From: a virus
Lineage: Duplodnaviria; Heunggongvirae; Uroviricota; Caudoviricetes
Virus record (IMG/VR): IMGVR_UViG_3300029456_000117
Strand: one strand, 5' to 3'
DNA length: 64,000 nucleotides
Part shown: positions 15,055 to 53,209 of the stretch, piece by piece
Position numbering within the stretch: position 1 is the first letter of the stretch
Layout: each line of letters opens with the position of its first letter
Translations under genes and position numbers: made by a program
Notes under the pieces: model-generated
The model's database searches: none
What the model was told of the DNA's origin: nothing
What the model saw: only the letters and a program-made list of their open reading frames with translations

Positions 15055-15172
15055 CTTCGTTCTACCTCCTTGTGTTTTCCTTTGCCTAAGAGGTAAAGCC
15101 TTGAATTTATTAAAACCACCGGCAGACACCAGGCGAGTGCTTTTCGGGAGCGACCCTAGCCGATGGAGTTAA

Positions 15173-24562: not shown

Positions 24563-24772
24563 CTACCGTCCTAACCTTTCCTGAATGATTTTCTGTCCAT
24601 CTTCACTCTCATAAAACCTTTGAATTGTTCCGAAACAAAACCTCACTCCATCAGGGATCGGCATATAAGTAAGCAGCTCTCCGGTTTCTAATCGCATTTC
24701 GCAGGATTTAATTCCGAAAATCTTTGATTTACACGTCAACTGAAACTTGTGTTTACAGGTCTGTTCTGCCAT
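24563..24772 (-). CDS. hypothetical protein
   Basis: 69-aa ORF. Confidence 0.35.
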   Translation of the reverse strand: MAEQTCKHKFQLTCKSKIFGIKSCEMRLETGELLTYMPIPDGVRFCFGTIQRFYESEDGQKIIQERLGR

Positions 24773-25448
24773 CGTCCTCTCCGATCTCCGAGAACTTCGT
24801 GTATATCCTGTTCTCAGCGTAGTAGATGTTATAATCTTTCTGCCGGATGTAATGCCACAATCCTTTTTCGTGACCGGCTTTCAGAAAATCATGGTTGTAA
24901 TACTCCGTCTCGTACCGCTCATTAACCATCTGCCGGAAACTGAGTTCATCTATCTGGTCTGAGGAATGAACAAAGTCTGAGATCTTGGTAATATCCTCTT
25001 TCGATAATTTCTCTGTTGCCACGAACACAACTCTTACGATTTCCGTTCCGTGTCTCTCCACATATTCCAAATCCTCAACGGATTGCAGATGATACACCAC
25101 TCTTTTGCAGAAATGGTACGGAAACTCCGACTCTGTGTAGCTCGTGTGCATTTCCATTGGAATACCGGCTTTAATGCAGATACCCATAACCATGCCGAGA
25201 TACATAGGCACAAGAGGATTGTCACTATACCGGTAAAGCGGATCTCCACCGCCGGAGATAGATACGATATTCGCTCCGGTCAATGTAATGGCATCCTCCA
25301 ATTTATCCAGACCGTCCACCGTGGATTTCGGCACTTTAATTCCATTCTCCCGGACTATGCAGTAAGGGCATCTGCCGTGGCAACCAAAGTTTGTTATTAC
25401 ACTCAGGTATTTATCCATTGATTGAATCCTCCCATAATTTATCCACAA
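24753..25448 (-). CDS. radical SAM enzyme (NrdG/QueE-like activating enzyme)
   Basis: 231 aa with a CxxxCxxC cluster (GCHGRCPYCIV) and a glycine-rich SAM motif (ISGGGDP). Confidence 0.55.
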   Translation of the reverse strand: MWINYGRIQSMDKYLSVITNFGCHGRCPYCIVRENGIKVPKSTVDGLDKLEDAITLTGANIVSISGGGDPLYRYSDNPLVPMYLGMVMGICIKAGIPMEMHTSYTESEFPYHFCKRVVYHLQSVEDLEYVERHGTEIVRVVFVATEKLSKEDITKISDFVHSSDQIDELSFRQMVNERYETEYYNHDFLKAGHEKGLWHYIRQKDYNIYYAENRIYTKFSEIGEDDGRTDL

Positions 25449-25818
25449 AGGTCTCTTCTATCCTTGCCAGAACCTTATCAGCTTTCACATCACTTTCAGG
25501 AACTTCGTGATAGATATATGTCTGCATGATTGCATTTGAGCCAAAAGTACCCATGACAAAGGAAATGGGATTCCCAAACCTCTTGCAAAGGAAATACTCT
25601 ATGAACTGATCGTGATGCTTATTCGCATGAACATACACATATCCATCATCTTCATATCCTCTGCCCTCATTCAAATCTGGATTGTAGTACACCTTATAGA
25701 CCTTGATTGATTCTCGTATGACCTTTTCATCGTGTTCTTTCGCTTCTTTCTCATTATCAAACTCTTTTCCGTCTGATGTTGTGTAGATAGTCCTTTTCTT
25801 TACCATTCTAACCTCCAA
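25411..25818 (-). CDS. hypothetical protein
   Basis: 135-aa ORF. Confidence 0.4.
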   Translation of the reverse strand: MEVRMVKKRTIYTTSDGKEFDNEKEAKEHDEKVIRESIKVYKVYYNPDLNEGRGYEDDGYVYVHANKHHDQFIEYFLCKRFGNPISFVMGTFGSNAIMQTYIYHEVPESDVKADKVLARIEETFVDKLWEDSING

Positions 25819-25900: not shown

Positions 25901-27352
25901 CTATTCAACTGTGATGCAATCATATCTCTCAGAATTGATTGTGTTCTCCATTGCCTCAACCGGGTTGTAACCAAGGTTCTGCAGAATCTGTTTGAATACC
26001 GTCACGGACTGTCCGCTTGCAAGCTGCACGCCCTTGCGGTTGTGATCTGCATGGAATACATCGTGTCTGCTATTCACATTCCAGAAGATAATGTTCGGGA
26101 TTACATAACCAGCCTTGCGGAACTTATTTGCCATCTTGTCATAGAAAGACCACTCACGGTTTCCACAACAGTCAATTTCCATGTCTGATATGACAACGAT
26201 TGCTTTCGGCATTTCCTCCTGCGGAGTATTGTGTTTTTCCGCAATTTCAAGAACCCTCTCAAAAGCAGCTTTAAGGTCTGTGTTATTATCCCAATTTGCT
26301 CTGCTTACGTTGTGGATCTTCTGTTCAATGGTTTCTCCCCTCAGAATAACCGTCTCTGGTCTGTCAGAGAATGTCATAAACAGATTGTGGTATGCACCCA
26401 CATTTCTCTCTGCAAAATAGATTGCAAGACCGATTGATGTTGCCATAGGTCTGCCTCTCATGGAACCGGACACATCCGCCATAACTAAAGCGTTTGTTCC
26501 TTTCTCCACATAATCCGGCAAGGCTTTCCACTGGGCTTCAAGTACCTTGTTGCTCTCTCTGCCGTAAAGGATCTTCTCAACAATATCGTAAGGGAATAGT
26601 GTTGAGGCATTGATCTTTACCTCTCCCTTTTCTGCTTTGCTGATAAACTCTCCAAATCTCTCAGCATCATGTTTCATAAATGCCTTGCGGTAAATCATCA
26701 TCGCACGGCTCGGAACTTCCGGGTATTTGATTTCATCCCATCTTCCGGCTGACATAAGACTTTCAACGACACCGATCTGTTTTCTCATGCTACGGACGAT
26801 TCTCTTGAAATTGTAGACTGGATAGCCTAATTTCTGCGCCGTAAGGATTCCGAGTTTTCTTGTGGCAGAGCTGCTTGCATCTGCGGTCTTAATCCACTTT
26901 GCAAGTAAGGAAATTGCATTTCCGGCATTGAGGTTCTGTAAATCTTCCTCAAACTGTTTCTTCATTGCAGCCCACATATCGTCCTCCAACGGAGTGCCGA
27001 TAAGCTCATACAGATCATCATATCTTCCGAACACACCGACCAGATCAAGGTTCGGTCTGAGTGCTTCCGGGTGTTTCTCTGCCATATAACGAATAATGGT
27101 TCTGAAAGTCTTTCTCTCTCCAAGACCGCCGCGAATGTCTCTTGCATAGAACGCAATCTTTGTAGCAAAGAGTTTGTCCTGTGCGTATGCCTCCGCAAAC
27201 AGAGTGGTAATTCTGTTCTCATCAGCCTCTCTCAGCGATCCGATTGTACCAAACAGATCCAATCTGGCATCGCCAGAAGTATTCAGTGCCACCGCACCAT
27301 TTTCAGTCCGGGTAAATCTACCCTCTTCTCTCATTGCATCTGCAAAGCTCAT
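25901..27352 (-). CDS. rsr: Ro60/Rsr-like RNA-binding protein (TROVE domain plus C-terminal vWA/MIDAS)
   Basis: 483 aa. The C-terminal vWA domain carries MIDAS motif DVSGSM (VMADVSGSMRGRPMATSIGLAIYFAERN). The N-terminal roughly 350 aa are helical-repeat TROVE-like. Size and architecture match bacterial Rsr. Confidence 0.7.
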   Translation of the reverse strand: MSFADAMREEGRFTRTENGAVALNTSGDARLDLFGTIGSLREADENRITTLFAEAYAQDKLFATKIAFYARDIRGGLGERKTFRTIIRYMAEKHPEALRPNLDLVGVFGRYDDLYELIGTPLEDDMWAAMKKQFEEDLQNLNAGNAISLLAKWIKTADASSSATRKLGILTAQKLGYPVYNFKRIVRSMRKQIGVVESLMSAGRWDEIKYPEVPSRAMMIYRKAFMKHDAERFGEFISKAEKGEVKINASTLFPYDIVEKILYGRESNKVLEAQWKALPDYVEKGTNALVMADVSGSMRGRPMATSIGLAIYFAERNVGAYHNLFMTFSDRPETVILRGETIEQKIHNVSRANWDNNTDLKAAFERVLEIAEKHNTPQEEMPKAIVVISDMEIDCCGNREWSFYDKMANKFRKAGYVIPNIIFWNVNSRHDVFHADHNRKGVQLASGQSVTVFKQILQNLGYNPVEAMENTINSERYDCITVE

Positions 27353-27369
27353 GTTTTCCTACCTTTCCA

Positions 27370-27465
27370 GGACTCTCATTTACGGAATTGAACCGTTTCA
27401 CATTGTTTTTTAGACATTTGCTTTAACCATTGTGATTGCTGTAGGAGTCCCTATAAAATTGTTTA
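27370..27465 (-). ncRNA. tRNA-like/Y-RNA-like element next to rsr (acceptor-like terminal stem, internal T-loop GGTTCAATTCC, conserved GTGAC..ACAGCAATC motif)
   Basis: 5' GGGACTC pairs with 3' GAGTCCT. An internal T-loop-like CGG/TTCAATT/CCG is present. Motif copy 1. No anticodon arm. Confidence 0.3.
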
Positions 27466-27475
27466 CTGTTTCATT

Positions 27476-27560
27476 GTCAGGACACTATTGGGGTTTATGA
27501 TTAACAGTCATATCCAAAAGGGTTGCTGTAAGTGTCCCATGTAAAGTTTTATGCCTATCT
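27476..27560 (-). ncRNA. armless tRNA-like element (acceptor stem plus Asn-like anticodon arm TATGA/CTGTTAA/TCATA, no T arm)
   Basis: 5' GGGACAC pairs with 3' GTGTCCT. Motif copy 2 occupies the D-arm position. Confidence 0.3.
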
Positions 27561-27803
27561 GGCTAACTTTTTAAGTTCATACCGCCTGTTATGTATCGCT
27601 CCGACAGAACGACCAATTTTCTCAGACAATTCAGAATCGGTAATCTCATGCTTGATTACCAGTGTATCTTCCTCCGCAGTCCACGGATGAGACGGATATA
27701 GAAATGAAGTTTTGCTGTAATATCGCCTATGCTGTCTCTGACACGCCTTATGATACTTTTCCATATCCCTATAATCTTCTTTTCGGTTCATAGGCAACCT
27801 CAT
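27555..27803 (-). CDS. small Myb/HTH-like DNA-binding protein
   Basis: 82 aa. WTAEEDTLV...LSEKIGRSVGAIHNRRYEL resembles a Myb/SANT or sigma-region-4-like HTH. Confidence 0.4.
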   Translation of the reverse strand: MRLPMNRKEDYRDMEKYHKACQRQHRRYYSKTSFLYPSHPWTAEEDTLVIKHEITDSELSEKIGRSVGAIHNRRYELKKLAR

Positions 27804-27886
27804 TTCTTTACATGACGCTGTTTCAAACGGGAAAATATTGTCAATGGAATTTTCTGTTTTGAAAGATTGCTGTAAGCGTCACTTAA

Positions 27887-27987
27887 TTGCCCCGACAGGA
27901 CTTGAACCCGTATGCTCGATTGCTGTGCGGAACACAAGCGTTATCGCAGTCATGTTCCCTCCGGTTTACCATAACCGGCAATCGGGG
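27887..27987 (-). ncRNA. YrlA-like tRNA mimic 1 (101 nt; acceptor, D and T arms intact; anticodon stem-loop replaced by a long bulged helix)
   Basis: Acceptor stem is GCCCCGA/TCGGGGC. D arm is CCGG/TTATGGTAAA/CCGG. T arm is CGGG/TTCAAGT/CCTG. The middle section is GGAAC-ATGACT-GCG-ATAA-CGC-TTGT-GTTCC plus motif copy 4. Confidence 0.45.
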
Positions 27988-27989
27988 CA

Positions 27990-28108
27990 GAGACGAGGGA
28001 CGGAATCGAACCGCCGACACATGCCTTGGATTGGAATGAGATTGCTGCTGAGATCACTAACATGATCTGCGTATTCATATCATTGCTCTACCATCTGAGC
28101 TACCTCGC
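27990..28108 (-). ncRNA. YrlA-like tRNA mimic 2 (119 nt)
   Basis: Acceptor stem is GGCGAGG/CCTCGTC. D arm is GCTC/AGATGGT/AGAGC. T arm is GGCGG/TTCGATT/CCGTC. About 65 nt of extra structured sequence, containing motif copy 5, replaces the anticodon/variable region. Confidence 0.45.
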
Positions 28109-28158
28109 CATGTGGCACGTCTTATTGATTTGTAAGGACGTTTGTGCCATCGCCTTGA

Positions 28159-28278
28159 TTGGAGAGAGTTGGATTTGAACCAACAATGAAGCAGGCCCCA
28201 AGCTGTAAGATTTGCTGTCAGCATCACAAACATGATGTATTGTACATAACTGCCGCGTCTACCGTTCCGCCATCTCTC
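28159..28278 (-). ncRNA. YrlA-like tRNA mimic 3 (120 nt)
   Basis: Perfect acceptor stem GGAGAGA/TCTCTCC. T arm is GTTGG/TTCAAAT/CCAAC. The body has multiple small hairpins and motif copy 6, with no 7-nt anticodon loop. Confidence 0.45.
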
Positions 28279-28310
28279 CATATTCAGTTTTAATACGGAA
28301 ATCCGTATCA

Positions 28311-28431
28311 GTTGCGTGGGAGGGAATCGAACCCCCATCTCTTCGTTACCATCGAAAAAAGAATTATTGCTGTCCGTGTCACATGGAGCATGACAACCGC
28401 TCATAATGTTCTCTCCATTGAACTACCACGC
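28311..28431 (-). ncRNA. YrlA-like tRNA mimic 4 (121 nt; retains a possible GGU anticodon arm after a 47-nt insertion)
   Basis: Acceptor stem is TGCGTGG/CCACGCA. D arm is GTTC/AATGGAGA/GAAC. T arm is GGGGG/TTCGATT/CCCTC. There is a 47-nt insert containing motif copy 7, then TTTCG/ATGGTAA/CGAAG. Confidence 0.45.
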
Positions 28432-28434
28432 AAG

Positions 28435-28506
28435 ATTGCGGAGACAGGATTTGAACCTGTGACCTCCGGGGCATGAACCCGACAAGCTACCACTGCTCCA
28501 CTCCGC
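28435..28506 (-). tRNA. tRNA-Met (CAU), initiator-like
   Basis: GGCGGAG-TG-GAGC/AGTGGTA/GCTT-G-TCGGG/TTCATGC/CCCGG-AGGTC-ACAGG/TTCAAAT/CCTGT-CTCCGCA-A. It has a 1:72 mismatch and GGG:CCC in the anticodon stem, as in initiator tRNAs. Confidence 0.6.
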
Positions 28507-28721
28507 CATGATGTAACCTCGCCCCTAGGCTACCTTGTAAGTTCCGCTATGTCGTTCCTTGCGTCCCTCACTTAACCGGTGCTAACTACGACAGTATGTG
28601 ACCGGCGGACTTGATTAAATATTTCCGTACACCCGCTTAATGCCCCTCATTGGCGGTTCTGCCGAGACCAATGGCAATGCCGATAGAAAATATCTTTCGG
28701 GAAATCTCTCTAACCCAACTG

Positions 28722-28752
28722 GTTTAGCGTCCGAAGTCAGGACGGCTTTTTA
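28722..28752 (+). terminator. plus-strand rho-independent terminator-like hairpin with U-tract
   Basis: The sequence is gcgtcc-gaagtca-ggacgg-ctttttat. The U-tract is only on the plus strand. The only plus-strand ORF ending here is a weak 64-aa ORF. Confidence 0.4.
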
Positions 28753-29115
28753 TAATACTCTGGATATTGTCTTTCCAGAATTGTTCAGAATAAATACAAC
28801 CTTGTCCTCACAACCAATTCTGCTAAATACATAGCTTTCATCATCAGTTGTTACGACTACGAGATTATCGTTTTCTTCTAACGCAGGATCTCCGAGGTAC
28901 CAAGTAATGTTGTCTCTGCAAAAGCCGGCCTTTTTAATCTCATTCTCAACGCGGTTATAATTCTCTTTTCTCGCGTAAAGTTCTTCGTCAGCATCTTTGC
29001 AATTCTTTGTGTCAATCAACTTTGACTTCAAATCTCCTACTGAAAAACTTTCGATAATTCTTGATTCCATAAGGATTAAATTGTCTGAACCTTTCTTGCC
29101 TATCTGTAATATCAT
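28750..29115 (-). CDS. hypothetical protein embedded in the tRNA array
   Basis: 121-aa ORF with balanced composition. Confidence 0.45.
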   Translation of the reverse strand: MILQIGKKGSDNLILMESRIIESFSVGDLKSKLIDTKNCKDADEELYARKENYNRVENEIKKAGFCRDNITWYLGDPALEENDNLVVVTTDDESYVFSRIGCEDKVVFILNNSGKTISRVL

Positions 29116-29241
29116 TTCGTTTCTTCCTTTCTGTCTGAGCCTTTCGGCTTTATTTTCTCCGTTCCGGACCGGATATTGGATAGGTAAGGGATCGAACCTT
29201 ACACTGGAATATTACGATAGTCGCAGATTACCTCATGTGTT

Positions 29242-29345
29242 TGGTGCGTACGGATTTTTGAACCTATCGTATCAAAGGTGGATGGCTGCCATTCCTGCTT
29301 ATTCCAATCACTGCACTTTGCGCTGTTGCCACATCGGGACGCACC
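29242..29345 (-). ncRNA. tRNA-like element (104 nt) with perfect acceptor stem GGTGCGT/ACGCACC and a T-loop-like GGTTCAAAA
   Basis: A 7-bp terminal stem encloses structured sequence. There is no canonical anticodon arm. Confidence 0.35.
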
Positions 29346-29436
29346 TTTTCCTCAACCGTACTAATATTGCAGTTACCCTTTACTGCCTACTATCCAATTC
29401 TGAAACCTCCTCCACCGGTGGAATACGGTTTCATAG

Positions 29437-29519
29437 CGGTGCATATAGGAATCGAACCTATACGGCATTTCTGCCGGATGGCTTAGCAAGCCACTCCGCT
29501 ACCATTACGGCAATGCACC
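29437..29519 (-). tRNA. tRNA-Ser (anticodon GCU), class II
   Basis: Acceptor stem is GGTGCAT/ATGCACC. Anticodon arm is GTGGC/TTGCTAA/GCCAT. Long variable arm is CGGCA-GAAA-TGCCG. T arm is ATAGG/TTCGATT/CCTAT. Confidence 0.6.
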
Positions 29520-29523
29520 ATAA

Positions 29524-29595
29524 CGACTCTATTGGGAATCGAACCCAAATTTTCCGATAGACAGTCGGGCGTAATAACCTTTATACCATAGAGCC
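29524..29595 (-). tRNA. tRNA-Asp (anticodon GUC)
   Basis: GGCTCTA-T-GGTA...TACG-CCGA/CTGTCTA/TCGG-AAAAT-TTGGG/TTCGATT/CCCAA-TAGAGTC-G. Confidence 0.65.
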
Positions 29596-29719
29596 AAAAC
29601 CACAAAGTAAAATGCGACCTCACACCGCGGAATCGAACCGTTCCTTTCTCTATTGGTTTTTGGATAGAGAATGTGCAACCCATACACCTACGAATCGAAC
29701 GTATCCTTTACTTTGCCAC

Positions 29720-29802
29720 GCCGTGTTAGGGATTTGAACCCCAGAGACTTTTACATCCAGACGGTTTTCAAGACCGCACCCTCGACCAACCGGACACACG
29801 GC
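29720..29802 (-). tRNA. tRNA-Ser (anticodon UGA), class II
   Basis: Acceptor stem is GCCGTGT/ACACGGC. Anticodon arm is GCGGT/CTTGAAA/ACCGT. A long variable arm is present. T arm is TGGGG/TTCAAAT/CCCTA. Confidence 0.7.
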
Positions 29803-29916
29803 AGAGTAGTTTTCCCTTGGTAACGTACAAGTCGGAGATCCTCTTCCGCCGGTCGTAAACGCCCTTTCGTAACCTTTTTATGGAGTGCTTTGAAAGAGTA
29901 AGTCAAGTGTCTCCAA

Positions 29917-29988
29917 CTGGCAAGGTGGGGATCGAACCCACGACATTCTGATTAACAGTCAGACGCTCTACCACTGAGCTACAAGCCA
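29917..29988 (-). tRNA. tRNA-Asn (anticodon GUU) with two U-U mismatches in the acceptor stem
   Basis: TGGCTTG-TA-GCTC/AGTGGTA/GAGC-G-TCTGA/CTGTTAA/TCAGA-ATGTC-GTGGG/TTCGATC/CCCAC-CTTGCCA-G. Confidence 0.55.
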
Positions 29989-29991
29989 TTA

Positions 29992-30066
29992 TTGGAGTAA
30001 CAGGACTCGAACCTGCGCTAACCAACATCCGTAGTGTTGTGCTCTATCCATCTGAGCTATACTCCA
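29992..30066 (-). tRNA. tRNA-Arg (anticodon ACG)
   Basis: TGGAGTA-TA-GCTC/AGATGGAT/AGAGC-A-CAACA/CTACGGA/TGTTG-GTTAG-CGCAG/GTTCGAGT/CCTGT-TACTCCA-A. Confidence 0.7.
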
Positions 30067-30069
30067 ATG

Positions 30070-30833
30070 CAGTCCGGCGGCAGCTTGGATGGTTGCCACT
30101 ACCGAACCGATGCAACGTGTAAGACAGTTGCCAACAAAGGTATTTCATTTTTTAATGTGGTTCTCGGACCTTGCACCCCTCCACATGGTTCTCATAATCC
30201 ACCGACTACATACTCAAAGAACCTTTGACGAGTCCAACTCTTTATCGCCTTACCTCGGATGTACGTTGTTATCGCAGTTCTCCGCCTCTACTACATTCCT
30301 CTGCGCCTGACTAAGCATGACGGCTCGATTGGTTACGGCTCACGCACATCTATAATCAGGTCTTTCTCGGAAGTTTCCACCGCCGCTTAAATCGCTGTAA
30401 CGCTCATGCACTCTAAGCAGTAAATTTTCCGCACCGGAGTTTTTCTTAAAAACTCTTGGTAATGAAAAAGCACTTGGTGATCACCGGAACCTCGCCACCG
30501 CCAATTTTCTTTCCTGTTAAAGCCGGACTAAGAAAATCAGTTAAGAAATCCGCTCGTCCTACGGTGGGGAGTTGAACCCCACTTTCCCCGGCATGGTGTC
30601 CGTGGCATTTCCAGTTATGCTATCGTAGGCACCGTTGCAACAGTGGTCTTTAGCGTGACTTACGCAAGCTCTCCAATTTTAAGTCCTGTCGGCTTTCCCA
30701 GACTACTCACATAAGCCTCTCAGTGAGCATTGCAATCTCCCTATTTAATGATTGCTTACCACGGCTTTCGCCAATACTTTTCAGCCGGAACACTAAACCA
30801 ACTATAAACAGTCAGCGTTATTCTCAGTTGAAA
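30070..30833 (-). other. about 760-nt ORF-free region inside the tRNA array, with a tRNA-like fragment at about 30566-30631 and repeated ccaccgcc elements
   Basis: There is no minus-strand ORF of 60 aa or more. The fragment has a T arm TGGGG/TTCAACT/CCCCA and acceptor-like pairing. The strand and extent of any RNA are unknown. Confidence 0.2.
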
Positions 30834-30905
30834 TGTTCGATGGGAGAATCGAACTCCCGTCCCCACCGTGAAAAGGTGGTGTCTTGACCGTTTGACTAAT
30901 CGAAC
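30834..30905 (-). tRNA. tRNA-Glu (anticodon UUC)
   Basis: GTTCGAT-TA-GTC/AAACGGTCAA/GAC-A-CCACC/TTTTCAC/GGTGG-GGAC-GGGAG/TTCGATT/CTCCC-ATCGAAC-A. Confidence 0.65.
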
Positions 30906-31013
30906 AGAGGAGCGTTCCTTTTTACCGAAAGGCAATTAACCGCACAAGCGTAAACGGGTTCCTGATATTGATTTTTTCTTGCAAGATTACTTTCTCGGCT
31001 CATTACACCGAAA

Positions 31014-31103
31014 TGGGCGAAAGAGGAATTGAACCTCCAATGTTTACCACGAGGGAACGGATTTACAGTCCGCCGCAACACCACCAATCGTTGCCGTTCG
31101 CCC
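31014..31103 (-). tRNA. tRNA-Tyr (anticodon GUA), class II
   Basis: Acceptor stem is GGGCGAA/TTCGCCC. Anticodon arm is GCGGA/CTGTAAA/TCCGT. The variable region is 18 nt. T arm is GGAGG/TTCAATT/CCTCT. Confidence 0.6.
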
Positions 31104-31221
31104 GGAATTTTCTTTGTATCGCCAAGAACATTAGGAAAGAAGCGGTGGGAATCTTGATCGCTAGAGCTGCACCCACAGGTGGAATCGAACCACCACACTA
31201 CACCAAGTTCGCTCCGATCAT

Positions 31222-31497
31222 TTAGCGATTCACTTCATCTTTCAGTGCTTTACCGGCTTTGAACTTAGGTGCTTTGCAAGCCGGAATGGAAATCTCTTTT
31301 CCGTTCTGAGGGTTCTTGCCAACTCTGGCAGCGCGCTCAGTCACTTCAAATGTTCCGAAACCTACCAACTGCACTTTTCCACCCTTTCCAAGTTCTCCGC
31401 CTACGATCTCAACAAATGCGTTGAGTGCTTTTTCAGCGTCACTTTTGGAAAGTCCGGCATCGTCAGCCATAGCCTGTACTAATTCAGCTTTATTCAT
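31222..31497 (-). CDS. hup: HU family DNA-binding protein
   Basis: MNKAELVQAMADDAGLSKSDAEKALNAFVEIV...VQLVGFGTFEVTERAARVGKNPQNGKEISIPA is a canonical HU/IHF signature. Start is taken at the internal Met of ORF 31222-31533. Confidence 0.8.
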   Translation of the reverse strand: MNKAELVQAMADDAGLSKSDAEKALNAFVEIVGGELGKGGKVQLVGFGTFEVTERAARVGKNPQNGKEISIPACKAPKFKAGKALKDEVNR

Positions 31498-32467
31498 TGC
31501 CCTGTACCTCCGTTGTTGATGAAAGATCTCCAATGTCTACGATTGTGTCCGTGCCGTCAGATAGTGATACTTTCGGCAGTGCGCCGTCCCACTTCTCCAA
31601 ATACATCTGCTGCAAAATCTTATTCGTCAGTGAATCATTCAACAGTTTATTGGCGTCCGCTTCCCCCTGCGCTTTAATAACGGCAGCATCAGCTTCGCCC
31701 TGCGCCTGAGTAGTTTTTACCTTGGCATCTGCCTCAGCGGCCTCGATTTTTTTCTTATTTTCGATCTGCTGCTGTTCATAAGCCAACTGTGCGGTCTGTT
31801 TTTCAGCGATTGCCTGATTGTAACTGTCCTCAAAATCAGTATTGGCAATTACTACCTTGTTGATGATTACTACGTCCTCTCCATATTTCTCATTGAGGGC
31901 TTTCTGAATGTTCTGCATGGAAAGAGGTTCTACGATTCCTCTATTCGTTGCATCTGTTGAGGCCAAGGACTTGCTGCTTGTCTTGATTGCGGAAGCCACA
32001 AGTGTCTGCGTTACAAGGTTCTCCTTATAGTTGCTGACGTTTGCATAAATCCATGCGGACATTTCCGGGTTGATCTGGTATGTAACTGTAATGCCGTCAT
32101 AATACAGTGACGTTCTTTCCGATGTTTCAGACCAAATCTGTCCGTCAAAAACAATGTCCTGCTGCTTGTTGTTGACTTTCTCAATCTTCTGGATGAATGG
32201 GATCTTCCAGTTTGCGCCGTTCTGTATTGTTGTCTCATCAATCTGTCCGAATGTGCTTTTAACTCCGGTATATCCGGTCGGTATAATCACGAGTGAATTA
32301 CCTACTCCGAATACAATCAGACCAACAAGTGCCACAACAACAAAACCTTTTGGGAATTTTGCTTTCTCATTTCCCTTTTCCTCGATTTCATACTGTTTTA
32401 ACAAACACCCTGCAATGATGCCGCCGAAGAAAAGTATGATTCCGATGATCGTCAAAATGATACTCAT
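31490..32467 (-). CDS. SPFH/band-7 (HflK/C, stomatin-like) membrane protein
   Basis: 325 aa with an N-terminal TM helix, an SPFH core and a C-terminal AEA/Q-rich coiled coil (QAQGEADAAVIKAQGEADA). Confidence 0.65.
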   Translation of the reverse strand: MSIILTIIGIILFFGGIIAGCLLKQYEIEEKGNEKAKFPKGFVVVALVGLIVFGVGNSLVIIPTGYTGVKSTFGQIDETTIQNGANWKIPFIQKIEKVNNKQQDIVFDGQIWSETSERTSLYYDGITVTYQINPEMSAWIYANVSNYKENLVTQTLVASAIKTSSKSLASTDATNRGIVEPLSMQNIQKALNEKYGEDVVIINKVVIANTDFEDSYNQAIAEKQTAQLAYEQQQIENKKKIEAAEADAKVKTTQAQGEADAAVIKAQGEADANKLLNDSLTNKILQQMYLEKWDGALPKVSLSDGTDTIVDIGDLSSTTEVQGNE

Positions 32468-32629
32468 TCCGTTCTCCTTTTCCGTTTGTATTGCTACCTC
32501 TGGTAGCCGTCACGGTCATGCGCTGGACATTCCGTTTCTGTTCTGCATCGGCGCACTCAACCACCTTACTTCGTCTGGTCTATCTTGGTGTAGCTTCCAT
32601 TTACCCGGGAAATGCCAGATCGCCATGCG

Positions 32630-32704
32630 TGGACCATCAGGGACTTGAACCCCAGACCATCCGGTTATGAGCCGGACGCTCTAACCAACTGAGCTAATGG
32701 TCCA
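32630..32704 (-). tRNA. tRNA-Met or tRNA-Ile2 (anticodon CAU), elongator type
   Basis: GGACCAT-TA-GCTC/AGTTGGTTA/GAGC-G-TCCGG/CTCATAA/CCGGA-TGGTC-TGGGG/TTCAAGT/CCCTG-ATGGTCC-A. Confidence 0.65.
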
Positions 32705-32803
32705 TACCTCACACTCAGGGAGATTTGATGTGAGGTTTCGGAGGATTATCATAAGTGGGAACCCTCCGATGTAGGATTGCTGTCGGGGAACAGTAATCCC
32801 GAG

Positions 32804-32876
32804 TGGGAAGTGTTGGTGTCGAACCAACTCCTATGGATTTTCAGTCCATCGCTTCTACCGAGTTAGCTTACTTCCC
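32804..32876 (-). tRNA. tRNA-Phe (anticodon GAA)
   Basis: GGGAAGT-A-AGCT...GAAGC-G-ATGGA/CTGAAAA/TCCAT-AGGAG-TTGG/TTCGACA/CCAAC-ACTTCCC-A. Confidence 0.7.
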
Positions 32877-33029
32877 ATATTACGGCACTGTTACTGTGCC
32901 GTAATGGTTAGGAGAAACTTTAATGCCAAATACCTTGTGTTCACTCCGCTTAACTTATGTCCGTGTCACTTGGTATGGTCGTAGTATAGCCTACTGAACA
33001 TTGTTTGTCAAGTGGAATAAACAATATTT

Positions 33030-49156: not shown

Positions 49157-50421
49157 AGAAAGGATTGAGAACCATGAGAAAGAAAAGCGTATTTATTAAC
49201 TGTATGGAGACATTGACCGCAAATAGAAAACACAGCGAGGCCCGCACACTTCTCAATGCAGGACTGAAAGAGTCCGCAGAGAGACAGACCGCTGCCACCG
49301 CTCCGGCGTATGAACTTACAAAGCCGTATATCTTCCCTGCCGTTGATGGCAATATGACTTATCACACCTCATGGGGATCTCATGGAGTAAAGAACGAAGC
49401 CGAAACCATATTGAGTGTATTGAACTCTTTCCGCCTCCGCTCCACCCTTGCAAAAATCAATCAAGGACCACGCCTTACACAGTATGTTATTGAACCGGCT
49501 CCCGGAACTCAGGTGCAAGCCATTTTGAGACATGAAAAGGAATTTCAGGCAGCTTTACATTGCAACGCCTCTTTGAGATTTGATAATGGCTATGTGTATA
49601 TTGAGGTTCCGACCGGTACAGAAACCGTGTTCCTGGGCGATATGCTCATTGATAATGAGTATCAGTCCTCCAGTGGTTTCACAATGGCGATCGGCATGGC
49701 GGTTGACGGTTCCAAGCATTACATTGATATTGCCAAGGCTTGCCATATCCTCATTTCTGGTATGACAGGATCTGGTAAATCAATCGTTCTGCATAACCTC
49801 ATCTTGTCTCTATTGATGAAAAAGAATCCGGCACAGATGCACTTATATATCATTGACCCAAAAGCAACAGAGTTTGAGTATTACAAGAACCTTGCAGCGT
49901 GTACGGTTGTATCTGAGGTAAATGGTGCGGTTGAACTATTGAAGAACCTTTGTATTGAGATGGATCGCCGCTACTCCATTCTTGCCTCTACCGGCTGCCG
50001 TGACATTGACAGCTATAATACAAAGTTCGCAGATGCTCCTATGAGGCGTGACATAGTTTTCATTGATGAGTTATCCGACCTTATGAGCATGGGTGGAAAA
50101 TCCGTTGAGGGACATATTGTAAGAATTGCACAGAAAGCCCGTGCCTGTGGCATCCACCTTGTAATCGCTACACAGTACCCGGTTGCAAAGGTTGTTACTG
50201 GATTGATTAAGGCAAATATGCCTACAAAGATCTGTCTCCGTGTTGGTACAGTCACAAACTCTATGGTCGCATTGGATATGGCCGGCGGCGAAAAGCTCAT
50301 GGGTCATGGCGATATGCTTTTTCTCCCTAACGGTTCTCTTTCCCCGGTAAGGTTGCAAGGTGGGTTTGTATCTGAGACGGCAATCAACAATGTCGTTGCC
50401 GGTTTGATGAAAAATCAGTAA
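49135..50421 (+). CDS. FtsK/SpoIIIE-family DNA translocase ATPase
   Basis: 428 aa. Walker A is SGMTGSGKS. The Walker B region is IVFIDELSDLM. An FtsK-like TQYP...R motif is present. Confidence 0.75.
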   Translation: MYYRHPVKKGLRTMRKKSVFINCMETLTANRKHSEARTLLNAGLKESAERQTAATAPAYELTKPYIFPAVDGNMTYHTSWGSHGVKNEAETILSVLNSFRLRSTLAKINQGPRLTQYVIEPAPGTQVQAILRHEKEFQAALHCNASLRFDNGYVYIEVPTGTETVFLGDMLIDNEYQSSSGFTMAIGMAVDGSKHYIDIAKACHILISGMTGSGKSIVLHNLILSLLMKKNPAQMHLYIIDPKATEFEYYKNLAACTVVSEVNGAVELLKNLCIEMDRRYSILASTGCRDIDSYNTKFADAPMRRDIVFIDELSDLMSMGGKSVEGHIVRIAQKARACGIHLVIATQYPVAKVVTGLIKANMPTKICLRVGTVTNSMVALDMAGGEKLMGHGDMLFLPNGSLSPVRLQGGFVSETAINNVVAGLMKNQ

Positions 50422-52003: not shown

Positions 52004-53209
52004 ATGAGCAATTTGAAAGTATACGCAAAAACCATTGAAGATGAAGCACTTGAACAGATCAACACTCTTCTGTCTCAGGATGCCTTTAAGGACTGCAAGG
52101 TTCGCATTATGCCGGATGTTCATGCCGGTAAAGGCTGTGTAATCGGATTTACGGCAGACCTGGGAGAAAAGGTTATCCCGAACATTGTCGGAGTAGATAT
52201 TGGCTGTGGTATGCTCTGCGTGAGCATCGGACACGGAGATATTGATTTTGAAAAATTGGATAATGTCATTCGTACCTATGTCCCTAGTGGAAGAAATGTG
52301 CATGACGGTAGAGTTATGCGTTTTGGCGAATTACAAGACCTCTACTGTTACCGCGAATTGAGAGACACCAAGCGTATTGAGCGTTCTATCGGAACTCTCG
52401 GCGGCGGGAACCATTTCATTGAGGTTGATGTTGCTGAGGATGGATATAAGTATCTGGTTATTCATACCGGTAGCCGTAACCTCGGAAAACAGGTGGCGGA
52501 TTATTACCAGAATCTTGCCTACGAATTGATGTGTGGCAAGGACGATTTGTATGAGCGTCAGGATAAGCTCATTGAGGAATACAAGGCTGCCGGAAGAAAG
52601 TCTGAGATTGAGGCTGCCTTAAAAGAATTGCGTGAGAATTTCCGTGCCACCACTCCGAAGCTGCCAAAGGATCTGTGCTACTTGGATGGAAAGTACCGGG
52701 AGCAGTATTTACATGATATGCGTATCTGCCAGAAGTTTGCATATTTCAACCGTGTGATGATCGCGCAAATCATCTGCAATCACATGGGATGGGGAGTTGA
52801 TGCTGATATGCCGGATTACTTTGAGTGCATCCACAACTATATAGACCACGATTCTAATATTGTCCGCAAGGGTGCTATCTCTGCAAAACTCGGAGAAAAG
52901 GTACTTATCCCTATCAATATGCGTGACGGCTGTATTCTCGGAACCGGAAAGGGCAATGATGATTGGAACTGTTCTGCGCCGCATGGAGCTGGCCGGCTTA
53001 TGTCCCGGAGCAAAGCAAAGGAAACTCTCTCTTTGAGCGATTATTCTGCTTCTATGTCCGGCATCTACACCACTTCCGTATCTGAGGAAACCATAGATGA
53101 AGCTCCGATGGCATACAAACCGATTGAGGAAATCATGGACTGTATCAAAGATACCGTTGATATTCTCGCAGTATTGAAGCCGGTCTATAATTTCAAGGCG
53201 AGCGAATAA
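52004..53209 (+). CDS. rtcB: RtcB-family RNA 3'-phosphate/2',3'-cyclic-phosphate ligase
   Basis: 401 aa. It has the RtcB signatures MPDVHAGKGCVIGF, GGGNHFIEV, HTGSRNLG and the C-terminal HNY...GAGR metal/GTP-binding residues. Confidence 0.85.
   Translation: MSNLKVYAKTIEDEALEQINTLLSQDAFKDCKVRIMPDVHAGKGCVIGFTADLGEKVIPNIVGVDIGCGMLCVSIGHGDIDFEKLDNVIRTYVPSGRNVHDGRVMRFGELQDLYCYRELRDTKRIERSIGTLGGGNHFIEVDVAEDGYKYLVIHTGSRNLGKQVADYYQNLAYELMCGKDDLYERQDKLIEEYKAAGRKSEIEAALKELRENFRATTPKLPKDLCYLDGKYREQYLHDMRICQKFAYFNRVMIAQIICNHMGWGVDADMPDYFECIHNYIDHDSNIVRKGAISAKLGEKVLIPINMRDGCILGTGKGNDDWNCSAPHGAGRLMSRSKAKETLSLSDYSASMSGIYTTSVSEETIDEAPMAYKPIEEIMDCIKDTVDILAVLKPVYNFKASE

What the first reader, a model, noticed from the sequence alone, without database searches (positions are those of the whole stretch)
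27437..32790. Conserved 18-nt motif GATTGCTGT-N4-(G/A)TCAC repeated eight times, only within the tRNA-like island
Plus-strand occurrences are at about 27437, 27523, 27867, 27919, 28041, 28210, 28364 and 32770. In RNA sense on the minus strand the motif reads GUGAY-N4-ACAGCAAUC. It occurs inside the tRNA-like mimics at D-arm, variable-arm or insert positions, once in a 3' trailer (27867), and once in a hairpin between tRNA-Met and tRNA-Phe. Conservation with variable placement suggests a protein-binding or processing signal. Candidates are an Rsr/Ro-binding site, a nuclease site, or a small-ribozyme core that leaves cyclic-phosphate ends for RtcB, rather than a structural tRNA element.
Basis: seen in the sequence. 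Interest (0 to 1): 0.7.

Follow-up and report, generated by a model that had tools for sequence, protein, structure and literature searches.

The report
RNA partner motif of Ro-like protein
The repeated motif is the conserved core (a 7-base-pair helix followed by single-stranded ACAGCAA) of a previously undescribed family of tRNA-like phage RNAs that always travels with a Ro60-like RNA-binding protein gene (DUF2828), so it is most likely that protein's RNA binding site, a new counterpart of the Ro60/Y-RNA particle found in hundreds of cultured phages.

Summary
The motif is real. Seven of the eight listed sites (27434-28382, minus strand) belong to one RNA module; the eighth (32775) shares only the 9-mer. 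In RNA sense the module is a 7-bp helix (strand X pairs with strand Y), then 2 nt, then ACAGCAA(U/A)(C/U), with an unpaired G after Y. It occurs in two topologies. In four tRNA-like genes it is a capped hairpin that replaces the anticodon arm. In three units, X...ACAGCAA...body...Y-G closes a tRNA-like body; these lie in a tRNA trailer and in the leaders of two ORFs. The helix covaries strongly (99.8% paired, all 7 pairs with double changes). The gene immediately downstream (25901-27352) is a DUF2828 protein whose AlphaFold model matches Ro60/Rsr structures. The module lies next to DUF2828 genes, on the same strand, in about 80% of 78 distant genome loci and in cultured E. coli, Listeria, Staphylococcus, Campylobacter, Vibrio and Mycobacterium phages. 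T4 and T5 tRNA clusters lack it. Rfam has no model for it, and YrlA does not match. Best reading: the module is the RNA ligand of a divergent Ro60 family, analogous to Y RNA, and possibly also a translational operator. Binding itself is inferred, not shown. Ribozyme and intron readings are not supported.

The parts
28312..28432 (-). tRNA-like gene A. It has an acceptor stem, D arm, long variable hairpin and T arm. The anticodon arm is replaced by a capped module (hairpin plus CGG-ACAGCAAUA) at 28365-28398.
   Evidence: Rfam tRNA 43.7 bits with a 62-nt insert in place of the anticodon stem-loop. Model R1 hit 28365-28398, E 1.4e-5.
28160..28279 (-). tRNA-like gene B with a capped module (CAUCAU-GUUU-GUGAUG-CUG-ACAGCAAAU) at 28210-28240.
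   Evidence: Rfam tRNA 40.1 bits with a 55-nt insert. R1 hit E 1.3e-7.
27991..28109 (-). tRNA-like gene C with a capped module (AGAUCAU-GUUA-GUGAUCU-CA-GCAGCAAUC) at 28040-28070.
   Evidence: Rfam tRNA 41.9 bits with a 57-nt insert. R1 hit E 4e-8. Perfect 7-bp partner followed by G.
27887..27986 (-). tRNA-like element D: acceptor-like stem, D-like hairpin and T arm. Rfam's tRNA model does not call it. It carries a capped module (GGAACAU...GUGUUCC-GC-ACAGCAAUC) at 27918-27960.
   Evidence: RNAfold cloverleaf-like fold. R1 hit E 6e-4. Partner GGAACAUG.
27811..27882 (-). Open unit A. X is GUGACGC (27876-27882), followed by UU-ACAGCAAUC (27865-27873), a body, then Y+G GCGUCAUG (27811-27818). It starts 5 nt after element D and ends about 10 nt before the ribosome-binding site of the small ORF.
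   Evidence: Perfect 7-bp X:Y plus G. Model R2 hit E 4.7e-5.
27555..27803 (-). Small ORF (82 aa; a likelier start is the ATG at 27791). It has no family match and is flanked by modules.
   Evidence: no Pfam, PHROG or NCBIfam hit.
27478..27538 (-). Open unit B. X is GGGACAC, followed by UU-ACAGCAACC, an anticodon-stem-loop mimic (AUGA-CUGUUAA-UCAU), then Y+G GUGUCCUG.
   Evidence: R2 hit 70.8 bits, E 9e-14. Perfect X:Y. Alignment A4.
27368..27451 (-). Open unit C. X is GGGACUC, followed by CU-ACAGCAAUC, a body with a T-arm-like hairpin (ACGGUUCAAUUCCGU), then Y+G GAGUCCUG. It ends 15 nt before the ATG of the Ro-like gene.
   Evidence: R2 hit E 5e-3. Perfect X:Y. Sequence.
25901..27352 (-). DUF2828 + DUF7788/vWA protein (483 aa) with a Ro60-like fold. 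This is the presumed reader of the module.
   Evidence: Pfam. phrog_850 'RNA-binding protein'. AF2 pLDDT 93.9. The top 9 Foldseek PDB hits are all Ro60/Rsr/phage Ro60.
32770..32798 (-). It is a hairpin GGAUUaCUGU-UCCCCG-ACAGcAAUCC between tRNA-Phe and tRNA-Met. It shares only the 9-mer, and membership is doubtful.
   Evidence: Not found by R1 or R2. No X:Y partner.
52004..53209 (+). RtcB RNA ligase gene. It is context only and is not adjacent to the island.
   Evidence: Pfam RtcB 1e-62. RtcB is adjacent to DUF2828 in 18/86 other loci.

Best explanation
The motif is the sequence-conserved part of a structured RNA module. The module is a 7-bp helix of variable, covarying sequence. The 3' end of strand X runs, after 2 (rarely 1-3) nucleotides, into single-stranded ACAGCAA(U/A)(C/U). 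Strand Y is followed by an unpaired G. The module is attached to tRNA-like bodies in two ways. (i) A capped form (Y-G-UUN-X-NN-ACAGCAA) replaces the anticodon arm of otherwise tRNA-shaped RNAs that have their own acceptor, D and T arms. (ii) An open form has X at the 5' end and Y-G at the 3' end, enclosing an anticodon-stem-loop mimic and, in longer units, D- and T-arm-like elements; this is the topology of Y RNAs. I propose that the module is the specific binding site of the Ro60-like DUF2828 protein encoded next to it. The tRNA-like RNAs would then be that protein's Y-RNA equivalents: scaffolds or gates that could present tRNA-like or anticodon-loop-like surfaces to RNA repair or decay enzymes, or to host nucleases. 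The copies abutting the ribosome-binding sites of the DUF2828 gene and the small ORF could also let the protein control its own translation. What is shown: the module, its structure, its tight genomic linkage to DUF2828, and the Ro60-like fold. What is inferred: physical binding, autoregulation and the downstream function.
For: Structure:
- 217 of 263 distinct instances have a perfect 7-bp partner followed by G, against 33 of 263 when X strands are swapped between instances.
- Capped-form alignment: 94.4% paired against 73% in shuffles, 120 double-sided changes, 0/500 shuffles reach this.
- Open-form helix: 99.8% paired over 90 distinct sequences, all 7 pairs with compensatory changes, 0/500.

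Linkage to DUF2828:
- All 80 close IMG/VR relatives carry 1-7 copies upstream, on the gene strand.
- In 78 genome loci whose protein is only 38-86% identical (Lachnospiraceae, Erysipelotrichaceae, Treponema, Paludibacteraceae, Fretibacterium and others), ACAGCAA density is 2.10/kb in the 700 nt upstream on the sense strand, 0.06/kb antisense and 0.11/kb elsewhere.
- 63 of 78 loci have at least one strict module within 1.5 kb upstream.
- All 92 R2 hits in 605 kb are on the gene strand.
- Modules lie next to the gene in Felixounavirus VpaE1, mycobacteriophage Crossroads, Listeria LP-048, Staphylococcus 6ec, Campylobacter F371 and Vibrio KVP40.
- T4 and T5 tRNA regions have none.

Protein:
- AF2 pLDDT 93.9; the top nine PDB matches are Ro60/Rsr/phage Ro60 over the full length, TM about 0.6.
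- PHROG annotation 'RNA-binding protein'; GenBank annotation 'Ro-like RNA binding protein'.

Operator idea:
- The last module ends 13-48 nt before the gene start in 25 of 54 loci.
- In KVP40, strand Y contains the start codon.

Context:
- RtcB is adjacent in 18 of 86 loci.
- The Felixounavirus Bas63 Ro60-like gp130 counters the ppl defence, and its authors guessed that nearby 'tRNAs' might be Y RNAs (PMC11482910).
Against: - There is no binding data of any kind. Linkage could reflect co-transcription or a shared pathway rather than direct contact.
- The canonical Ro-binding element (GNCGAAN0-1G / GGUCCGA bulged helix; PMC4201824) is absent and Rfam YrlA does not match. Any recognition mode must therefore differ from the Ro60/Y RNA mode.
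- 15 of 78 loci show no strict module upstream, although some are truncated.
- In a blind pattern scan of IMG/VR, 25 true modules sat in tRNA arrays with no DUF2828 inside the few kb held. The gene may lie elsewhere on those 50-190-kb contigs, but this was not testable.
- The helix sequence is not conserved, so specificity would rest on only about 8 nucleotides plus shape.
Confidence: 0.66

Rival explanations
1. The modules are tRNA-array punctuation: mimics of a minimal tRNA (7-bp acceptor-like helix plus discriminator-like G) that host tRNA-processing enzymes such as RNase P, RNase Z or the CCA-adding enzyme read in order to cut and stabilise polycistronic tRNA/mRNA transcripts. On this view they act independently of the DUF2828 protein.
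For: The helix is exactly 7 bp and is followed by an unpaired G, like an acceptor stem plus discriminator. Open units often start 3-5 nt (UUU/CUU) after the 3' end of a tRNA(-like) gene and end just 5' of the next tRNA in phage and giant-virus tRNA arrays. Bodies contain anticodon-loop mimics (CUNNNAA) and T-arm-like hairpins.
Against: ACAGCAA is invariant across phages of Actinobacteria, Firmicutes, Proteobacteria, Bacteroidota and Spirochaetes, which points to a reader that travels with the phage. The modules show strict same-strand adjacency to DUF2828. The classical tRNA clusters of T4 and T5 lack the module. Some copies sit downstream of the gene with no tRNAs nearby (Crossroads, Staphylococcus 6ec).
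Confidence: 0.15
2. The modules are purely cis-acting leader elements, riboswitch-like or T-box-like, that sense a ligand or an uncharged or damaged tRNA and control expression of the DUF2828 gene without binding its product.
For: The proximal unit abuts the ribosome-binding site in many loci. In KVP40 the helix includes the start codon. Tandem copies in leaders recall tandem riboswitches.
Against: Modules also lie downstream of the gene, inside independent tRNA-like genes, and between tRNAs far from any ORF. The bodies are highly variable in length and fold, unlike a ligand pocket. No Rfam riboswitch or T-box hit was found.
Confidence: 0.08
3. The module is a small self-cleaving ribozyme, or the target of a specific endonuclease, whose 2',3'-cyclic phosphate products are rejoined or processed by the phage RtcB.
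For: RtcB is encoded in the window and directly next to DUF2828 in 18/86 loci. The conserved unpaired nucleotides flanking a helix are compatible in principle with a catalytic or cleavage site.
Against: No match to any Rfam ribozyme family even at E<=10. Only about 8 nucleotides are conserved. The sequence between X and Y varies from 25 to over 100 nt with unrelated folds. The same core works in two permuted topologies.
Confidence: 0.05
4. The roughly 50-nt insertions are introns of real decoding tRNAs.
For: When forced to allow introns, ARAGORN calls three 'tRNAs' with 28-48-nt introns.
Against: The resulting anticodon loops lack U33 and proper stems. Rfam alignments show that the insert replaces the whole anticodon stem-loop. 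The same holds in distant homologues. There are no group I or bulge-helix-bulge features.
Confidence: 0.01

Closest known systems
Bacterial and phage Y RNAs of the YrlA type with Ro60/Rsr (Rfam RF02553; Chen et al. 2014, PMC4201824)
   Same: The ncRNAs are encoded within a few hundred nt of a ring-shaped TROVE+vWA-fold protein gene on the same strand, often in several copies. A terminal stem carries a short conserved element next to a tRNA-like domain. Several long units here even have the YrlA order T arm, closed acceptor-like hairpin, D arm (VpaE1 6377, Crossroads 4536, L157). There is a recurrent link to RtcB.
   Different: The protein is DUF2828, not Pfam TROVE. The conserved element is ACAGCAA after a 7-bp helix, not GNCGAAN0-1G in a bulged helix. 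The YrlA covariance model does not match (best 19-31 bits against a threshold of 69, and those hits fall on ordinary tRNAs). A capped, permuted form sits inside complete tRNA-shaped RNAs. Minimal units carry only an anticodon-loop mimic.
Thermus phage phiLo Ro60 with Yrl1/Yrl2 (PMC12135203; PDB 9KOP, 9L5Y)
   Same: A phage-encoded Ro60-fold protein with two small RNAs encoded just upstream of its gene. Its structure is among the top structural matches of the model.
   Different: The phiLo RNAs were picked by the canonical CGAA motif and the stem-bulge-stem shape. Binding is shown there; here it is not.
Felixounavirus Bas63 gp130 (PhageMaP preprint, PMC11482910)
   Same: A Ro60-like protein directly upstream of the tRNA array of a FelixO1-like phage. 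By inference it is the orthologue of VpaE1 ORF045, next to which I find four modules. The authors proposed that some annotated tRNAs might be Y RNAs, and showed that the gene counters the ppl defence system.
   Different: That work identified no RNA motif or structure. The orthology of gp130 to DUF2828 was not checked here against the Bas63 sequence itself.
Deinococcus radiodurans Yrn1
   Same: According to Chen et al. 2014, Yrn1's tRNA-like element has the protein-binding stem at the acceptor end and a closed anticodon-like arm. The open units B and C here have the same topology.
   Different: The binding motif differs and there is no sequence relation. The comparison rests on the paper's description only.
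Stable RNAs of unknown function in phage tRNA clusters (T4 species 1/2 RNAs; T5 RNAI, III, IV, RNA1-3)
   Same: Small stable, partly tRNA-like RNAs interspersed among phage tRNA genes.
   Different: They do not contain the module. As far as I know, those phages have no DUF2828 gene.

Membership tests
Y RNA / YrlA (Rfam RF02553, RF00019) | Encoded close to, and on the same strand as, a Ro60 orthologue | tested here: met
   Seven modules lie within 1.1 kb upstream of a protein with a Ro60 fold. The protein is DUF2828, not Pfam TROVE.
Y RNA / YrlA (Rfam RF02553, RF00019) | Conserved Ro-binding element GNCGAAN0-1G / GGUCCGA in a bulged terminal stem; match to the family covariance model | tested here: not met
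   The YrlA model gives only 19-31 bits against a gathering score of 69, and those hits fall on tandem ordinary tRNAs. It gives no hit at E<=1 on the Crossroads or VpaE1 module regions. The conserved element is ACAGCAA.
Y RNA / YrlA (Rfam RF02553, RF00019) | Terminal stem formed by the 5' and 3' ends, enclosing a tRNA-like domain | tested here: met
   Open units have a 7-bp X:Y helix enclosing bodies with anticodon-loop mimics and D- and T-arm-like elements. The capped form in tRNA-like genes is a permutation not described for YrlA.
Y RNA / YrlA (Rfam RF02553, RF00019) | Physical association with the Ro60 protein | not testable with these tools
   Requires EMSA or RIP.
tRNA (RF00005) | Complete cloverleaf including a 5-bp anticodon stem and a 7-nt loop with U33 | tested here: not met
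   Elements A-C score 40-44 bits, but the anticodon stem-loop is replaced by 55-62 nt. Forced intron models give loops without U33. Element D is not called at all.
Self-cleaving ribozymes (hammerhead, twister, pistol, hatchet, HDV-like and others in Rfam 15) | Match to a family model or conserved catalytic core | tested here: not met
   No ribozyme family appears in cmscan at E<=10 over 27300-33000, nor in related loci. Activity itself is not testable here.
Ro60 / Rsr (TROVE + vWA) protein family, for the partner gene | HEAT-repeat ring plus vWA fold | tested here: met
   AF2 model pLDDT 93.9, pTM 0.93. Foldseek top 9 PDB hits are Ro60, Rsr and phage Ro60, E 1e-7 to 2e-4, over about 500-580 aligned columns.
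Ro60 / Rsr (TROVE + vWA) protein family, for the partner gene | Sequence match to Pfam TROVE (PF05731) | tested here: not met
   Only DUF2828, DUF7788 and VWA_2 match, even at E<=10. phmmer against PDB finds no Ro60.

The most novel reading that the evidence does not exclude
The ACAGCAA modules define a large, unrecognised class of phage non-coding RNAs that load a Ro60-like ring (DUF2828) onto tRNA-shaped and anticodon-loop-shaped decoys. On this reading the particle is a mobile counter-defence or RNA-repair device. It would sense, sponge or help repair (with RtcB or PNK/ligase) damage by host tRNA-directed or RNA-directed immunity. It would be present in FelixO1-like, P100/A511-like, Twort-like/6ec-like, KVP40-like, Campylobacter and cluster L mycobacteriophages, in gut Lachnospiraceae phages, and even in giant-virus tRNA arrays.
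Probability: 0.25. Interest if true: 0.9.

Novelty: new variant of a known kind. Interest (0 to 1): 0.78.

Why it matters
DUF2828 'Ro-like' proteins are encoded by more than 700 sequenced cultured phages and by thousands of metagenomic ones (6,608 representative clusters). Their function is essentially unknown. One homologue is toxic when overexpressed (LeBron gp53, PMC13148394) and one counters an anti-phage system (Bas63 gp130, PMC11482910). Nobody has identified their RNA partner. This analysis gives a precise, testable partner: an 8-nucleotide signature on a 7-bp helix, with two covariance models that pick it out with no off-strand hits in 605 kb. It shows that many 'gaps' and odd or pseudo 'tRNAs' in phage tRNA arrays are members of this class. 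It also extends the Ro60/Y-RNA concept to a second, sequence-unrelated protein/RNA pair. Because the system exists in E. coli, Listeria, Staphylococcus and Mycobacterium smegmatis phages, binding, knock-out and defence assays are immediately feasible.

Tried and rejected
1. Literal motif search. It gave only one exact hit. I moved to mismatch and structure-aware definitions.
2. tRNA-with-intron reading. ARAGORN -i forces three calls, but the anticodon loops are not tRNA-like. Rejected.
3. Known RNA families. Rfam at gathering and E-value thresholds on the window, on 20 distant loci and on two cultured phages returned only tRNA hits plus noise.
4. Canonical YrlA. I compared the consensus and found no shared motif. 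My remembered resemblance between the RUC/GAY core and the Y-RNA GUC/GAC helix is not general (Listeria, Campylobacter and Felix helices differ), so I dropped it.
5. ACAGCAA pairing in cis. The 7-nt complement in element D's 5' end (CGAUUGC) is not seen in the other elements, so I treat it as coincidence.
6. Single-sequence MFE folds of the tRNA-like genes were inconsistent. I used comparative analysis instead.
7. Sigma-70 promoter and terminator scan of the island was uninformative.
8. PADLOC and NCBIfam gave no hits for the protein or its neighbours.
9. Supplementary tables of Chen et al. 2014, needed to see which phages they covered, are not held.
10. The blind IMG/VR pattern scan could not decide whether DUF2828-less loci truly lack the gene, because only a few kb per contig are held.
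11. I did not verify the Bas63 gp130 sequence directly.

Full report
**The observation**

The pattern as written (GATTGCTGT-N4-RTCAC, plus strand) matches exactly once, at 27865-27882. Allowing up to 2 mismatches gives 8 hits in 64 kb, against 0.9 expected (maximum 5 in 200 first-order Markov simulations). Seven of these lie on one strand within 950 nt: 27434, 27521, 27865, 27918, 28040, 28210 and 28365.

The other hit (50000-50017) is on the opposite strand inside an FtsK-like ORF and looks like chance. There the 9-mer is the 3' strand of an ordinary hairpin between tRNA-Phe and tRNA-Met. The models built later do not detect it.

**Surroundings**

All features discussed are on the minus strand. 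After a normal tRNA-Met (28434-28508) come three genes of about 120 nt: 28312-28432, 28160-28279 and 27991-28109. Rfam scores each as tRNA (40-44 bits), but only with a 55-62-nt insertion that replaces the whole anticodon stem-loop. A fourth tRNA-like element lies at 27887-27986. Each carries one motif copy.

A fifth copy lies 5 nt behind element D. Two more lie between a small ORF (27555-27803) and a 483-aa ORF (25901-27352). That ORF is DUF2828 + DUF7788/vWA in Pfam and phrog_850 'RNA-binding protein'. An AlphaFold2 model built on a 60-sequence alignment (pLDDT 93.9, pTM 0.93) has Ro60 structures as its nine best PDB matches: Xenopus and human Ro60, Deinococcus Rsr and Thermus phage phiLo Ro60. 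These matches span the full length (E 1e-7 to 2e-4, TM about 0.5-0.6). Pfam TROVE is not matched even at E<=10. The neighbour is therefore a Ro60-fold protein of a sequence family distinct from canonical Ro60.

**What the motif is**

Read as RNA, the 'GUGAY' half is one strand (X) of a 7-bp helix. It is followed by 2 nt and then by single-stranded ACAGCAA(U/A)(C/U). The partner strand Y is followed by an unpaired G.

There are two topologies:
- In the tRNA-like genes, Y lies upstream and the helix is capped by a G-UUN loop. An example is AGAUCAU-GUUA-GUGAUCU-CA-GCAGCAAUC.
- In the other three copies, Y lies 35-60 nt downstream, so that X...ACAGCAA...body...Y-G forms a closed unit:
  - 27882 GUGACGC with 27818 GCGUCAUG
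  - 27538 GGGACAC with 27485 GUGUCCUG
  - 27451 GGGACUC with 27375 GAGUCCUG

Units B and C differ at X6 (A versus U), and their own downstream Y strands compensate (U versus A). This excludes the alternative pairing with the preceding Y.

Across 263 distinct instances from the window and related loci, 217 have a perfect 7-bp partner followed by G. When X strands are swapped between instances, only 33 do. There are 57 different X heptamers.

I built a covariance model of the capped form from 16 sequences of the close phage group. It finds 82 hits in independent genome loci and the window. In those hits 94.4% of cells are paired (shuffled 73%), with 120 double-sided changes and 0 of 500 shuffles as high. 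A model of the short open form finds 92 hits at E<=0.1 in 605 kb. In those hits the X:Y helix is 99.8% paired and all seven pairs show compensatory changes, again with 0 of 500 shuffles as high. In the window the two models recover exactly the 4 + 3 island copies.

**Bodies**

Short open units (55-65 nt) contain a 5-bp stem with a 7-nt loop of the form CUNNNAA, that is, an anticodon-loop mimic. The 'anticodons' vary. Unit B has CUGUUAA, identical to the loop of the phage's own tRNA-Asn.

Longer units add D-loop-like (AAUGGUAAA) and T-arm (GGUUCGAAUCC) elements. Some have the permuted order T arm, closed acceptor-like hairpin, D arm, which is typical of YrlA.

The capped form sits between the D arm and a small hairpin that precedes the T arm, in RNAs that keep a normal acceptor stem. 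The same architecture is found in distant lineages. Removing the insert does not recreate an anticodon arm, so these are not intron-containing tRNAs.

**Linkage to DUF2828**

- All 80 close IMG/VR relatives (84-100% protein identity) carry 1-7 copies on the gene strand; apart from a few weak 2-mismatch hits inside or downstream of the gene, these lie upstream of it.
- In 78 usable loci from a species-representative genome collection, the protein is only 38-86% identical. The hosts include Lachnospiraceae, Erysipelotrichaceae, Christensenellaceae, Treponema, Fretibacterium and Paludibacteraceae, plus one Promethearchaeota MAG.
  - 62 of these loci have the exact heptamer in the 700 nt upstream on the sense strand.
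  - The density there is 2.10 per kb, against 0.06 antisense and 0.11 elsewhere.
  - 63 loci have at least one strict module within 1.5 kb.
- tblastn finds the protein in 709 cultured-phage records, often annotated 'Ro-like RNA binding protein'. I looked at six of them, and each had modules beside the gene (KVP40's single copy pairs imperfectly):
  - E. coli Felixounavirus VpaE1: four modules in unannotated gaps of the tRNA array just downstream.
  - Mycobacterium phage Crossroads: three modules in the 376-nt gap after gp55.
  - Listeria LP-048: three upstream, with an RtcB-like gene 1.3 kb downstream.
  - Staphylococcus 6ec: three downstream.
  - Campylobacter F371: two upstream.
  - Vibrio KVP40: one module, whose 6-of-7-bp Y strand is not followed by the G and contains the start codon.
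- The tRNA regions of T4 (25 kb) and T5 (49 kb), including their classical stable RNAs, contain none.
- A blind IMG/VR scan with AAAGACRCNNACAGCAA gave 123 matches. Of these, 43 are true modules (perfect partner plus G). Eighteen lie in loci where DUF2828 is visible on the same strand. The other 25 lie in tRNA arrays, typically just 5' of a tRNA, on large contigs of which only a few kb are held. Whether those genomes carry the gene could not be tested.

**How it most likely works**

What is shown: a covarying helix with an invariant single-stranded heptamer, its two topologies, its attachment to tRNA-like bodies, its near-obligate linkage to a Ro60-fold protein gene, and the frequent adjacency of RtcB (18 of 86 loci).

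What is inferred: the protein binds the module. Ro60 binds a conserved helix of Y RNAs on its outer surface and single-stranded RNA in its cavity (established knowledge; PMC4201824, PMC12135203). A helix plus a single-stranded heptamer is the kind of target such a ring could read.

The tRNA-like RNAs would then be Y-RNA equivalents. The last module ends 13-48 nt before the start of the gene in 25 of 54 loci. In this window units A and C end just before the ribosome-binding sites of the small ORF and the Ro-like gene. The same contact may therefore repress translation, giving autogenous control.

The downstream role is speculative. Candidates are RNA repair with RtcB, recruitment of decay enzymes, or acting as a decoy for tRNA-directed host nucleases. 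One experimental anchor is that a Felixounavirus Ro60-like gene located directly upstream of the tRNA array counters the ppl defence system (PMC11482910).

**Rivals**

- A role as host-read tRNA-processing punctuation fits the 7-bp-plus-G geometry and the positions behind and in front of tRNAs. It does not explain the invariance of ACAGCAA across very different hosts, the linkage to DUF2828, or the absence from T4 and T5.
- A purely cis-regulatory sensor does not explain copies downstream of the gene, copies inside separate tRNA-like genes, or copies between tRNAs.
- A ribozyme or nuclease-site reading has no positive evidence: no family match, about 8 conserved nucleotides and variable bodies. 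It needs a bench test to exclude.
- The intron reading fails.

**Comparison with what is known**

The system works like Ro60/Y RNA (YrlA, Yrn1, phiLo Yrl1/2), but it fails the sequence-level membership tests of both partners. The protein does not match TROVE. The RNA has no GNCGAA element and does not match the YrlA model. Rfam 15 has no family for it.

Full-text searches found no paper on DUF2828 function or on its RNA. The nearest prior statement is the guess in PMC11482910 that some Bas63 'tRNAs' may be Y RNAs. My literature access is limited to open-access text, so an earlier description elsewhere cannot be excluded.

**Verdict**

This is a real, structured, widely conserved RNA module. 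It is best explained as the cognate RNA of a divergent Ro60-like protein family, with confidence about 0.66. It is a new variant of a known kind of system, and it can be tested directly in model phages.

Noticed in passing
window 30067-30833 (minus strand): An ORF-poor stretch of about 770 nt lies between tRNA-Arg and tRNA-Glu. ARAGORN calls an odd 'tRNA-???' with a 4-nt anticodon (acca) at 30556-30629, which Rfam does not support even at E<=10. It may be another structured non-coding RNA or a degenerate tRNA-like element.
   Followed up: partly
window 15099-15166 (minus strand): Rfam int-alpA RNA (RF02996) hit above the gathering score (43.8 against 35.8 bits).
   Followed up: no
window 32704-32803 (minus strand): Three consecutive stable hairpins (MFE -39.9 kcal/mol for 100 nt) fill the spacer between tRNA-Phe and tRNA-Met. 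In related phages a variant GGAAU-UGUU-GUUCC-CCG-ACAGCAAUCC is conserved and could be a degenerate 5-bp version of the capped module.
   Followed up: partly
window 27478-27538 compared with 29917-29988: The anticodon-loop mimic of unit B (CUGUUAA) is identical to the anticodon loop of the phage's own tRNA-Asn(GUU). In other loci the mimics carry other 'anticodons' (GUC, GAU, UUU, UCU, GUA and more).
   Followed up: partly
window 52004-53209 (+); loci L111, L125, L126, L130, L133, L136, L151, L160, L284 and others: The window encodes RtcB 25 kb from the island. In 18 of 86 other DUF2828 loci an RtcB-like ORF lies within 3 kb, usually directly downstream on the same strand. This echoes the bacterial rsr-yrlA-rtcB arrangement.
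   Followed up: partly
L168 (IMG/VR giant-virus MAG GVMAG-M-3300017963-53), minus strand: 157-173, 409-425, 699-715: Three near-identical open modules (AAGACAC-UA-ACAGCAAUU...GUGUCUUG) each sit immediately 5' of a tRNA-Ser/Leu-like gene in a tandem array. No DUF2828 is visible in the 11 kb held.
   Followed up: no
L281 (E. coli phage vB_EcoM-VpaE1) 5790-5875 and 5945-6035: Unannotated tRNA-like sequences ending in CCA lie between the modules in the FelixO1-type tRNA array. Other Felixounavirus records annotate the same stretch variously as tRNA-Met, tRNA-Asn or 'tRNA-OTHER'.
   Followed up: no
window 24753-25448 and 25411-25818 (minus strand): Immediately downstream of the Ro-like gene lie a radical-SAM protein (phrog_17662, function unknown) and a 135-aa ORF with no clear family.
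   Followed up: no
window 27555-27803 (minus strand): The 82-aa ORF sandwiched between modules has no Pfam, PHROG, NCBIfam or PADLOC hit. The more distant relatives examined (L049, L058-L080) have their modules packed within about 310 nt upstream of the gene, which leaves little room for this ORF there; its presence or absence was not checked directly.
   Followed up: no
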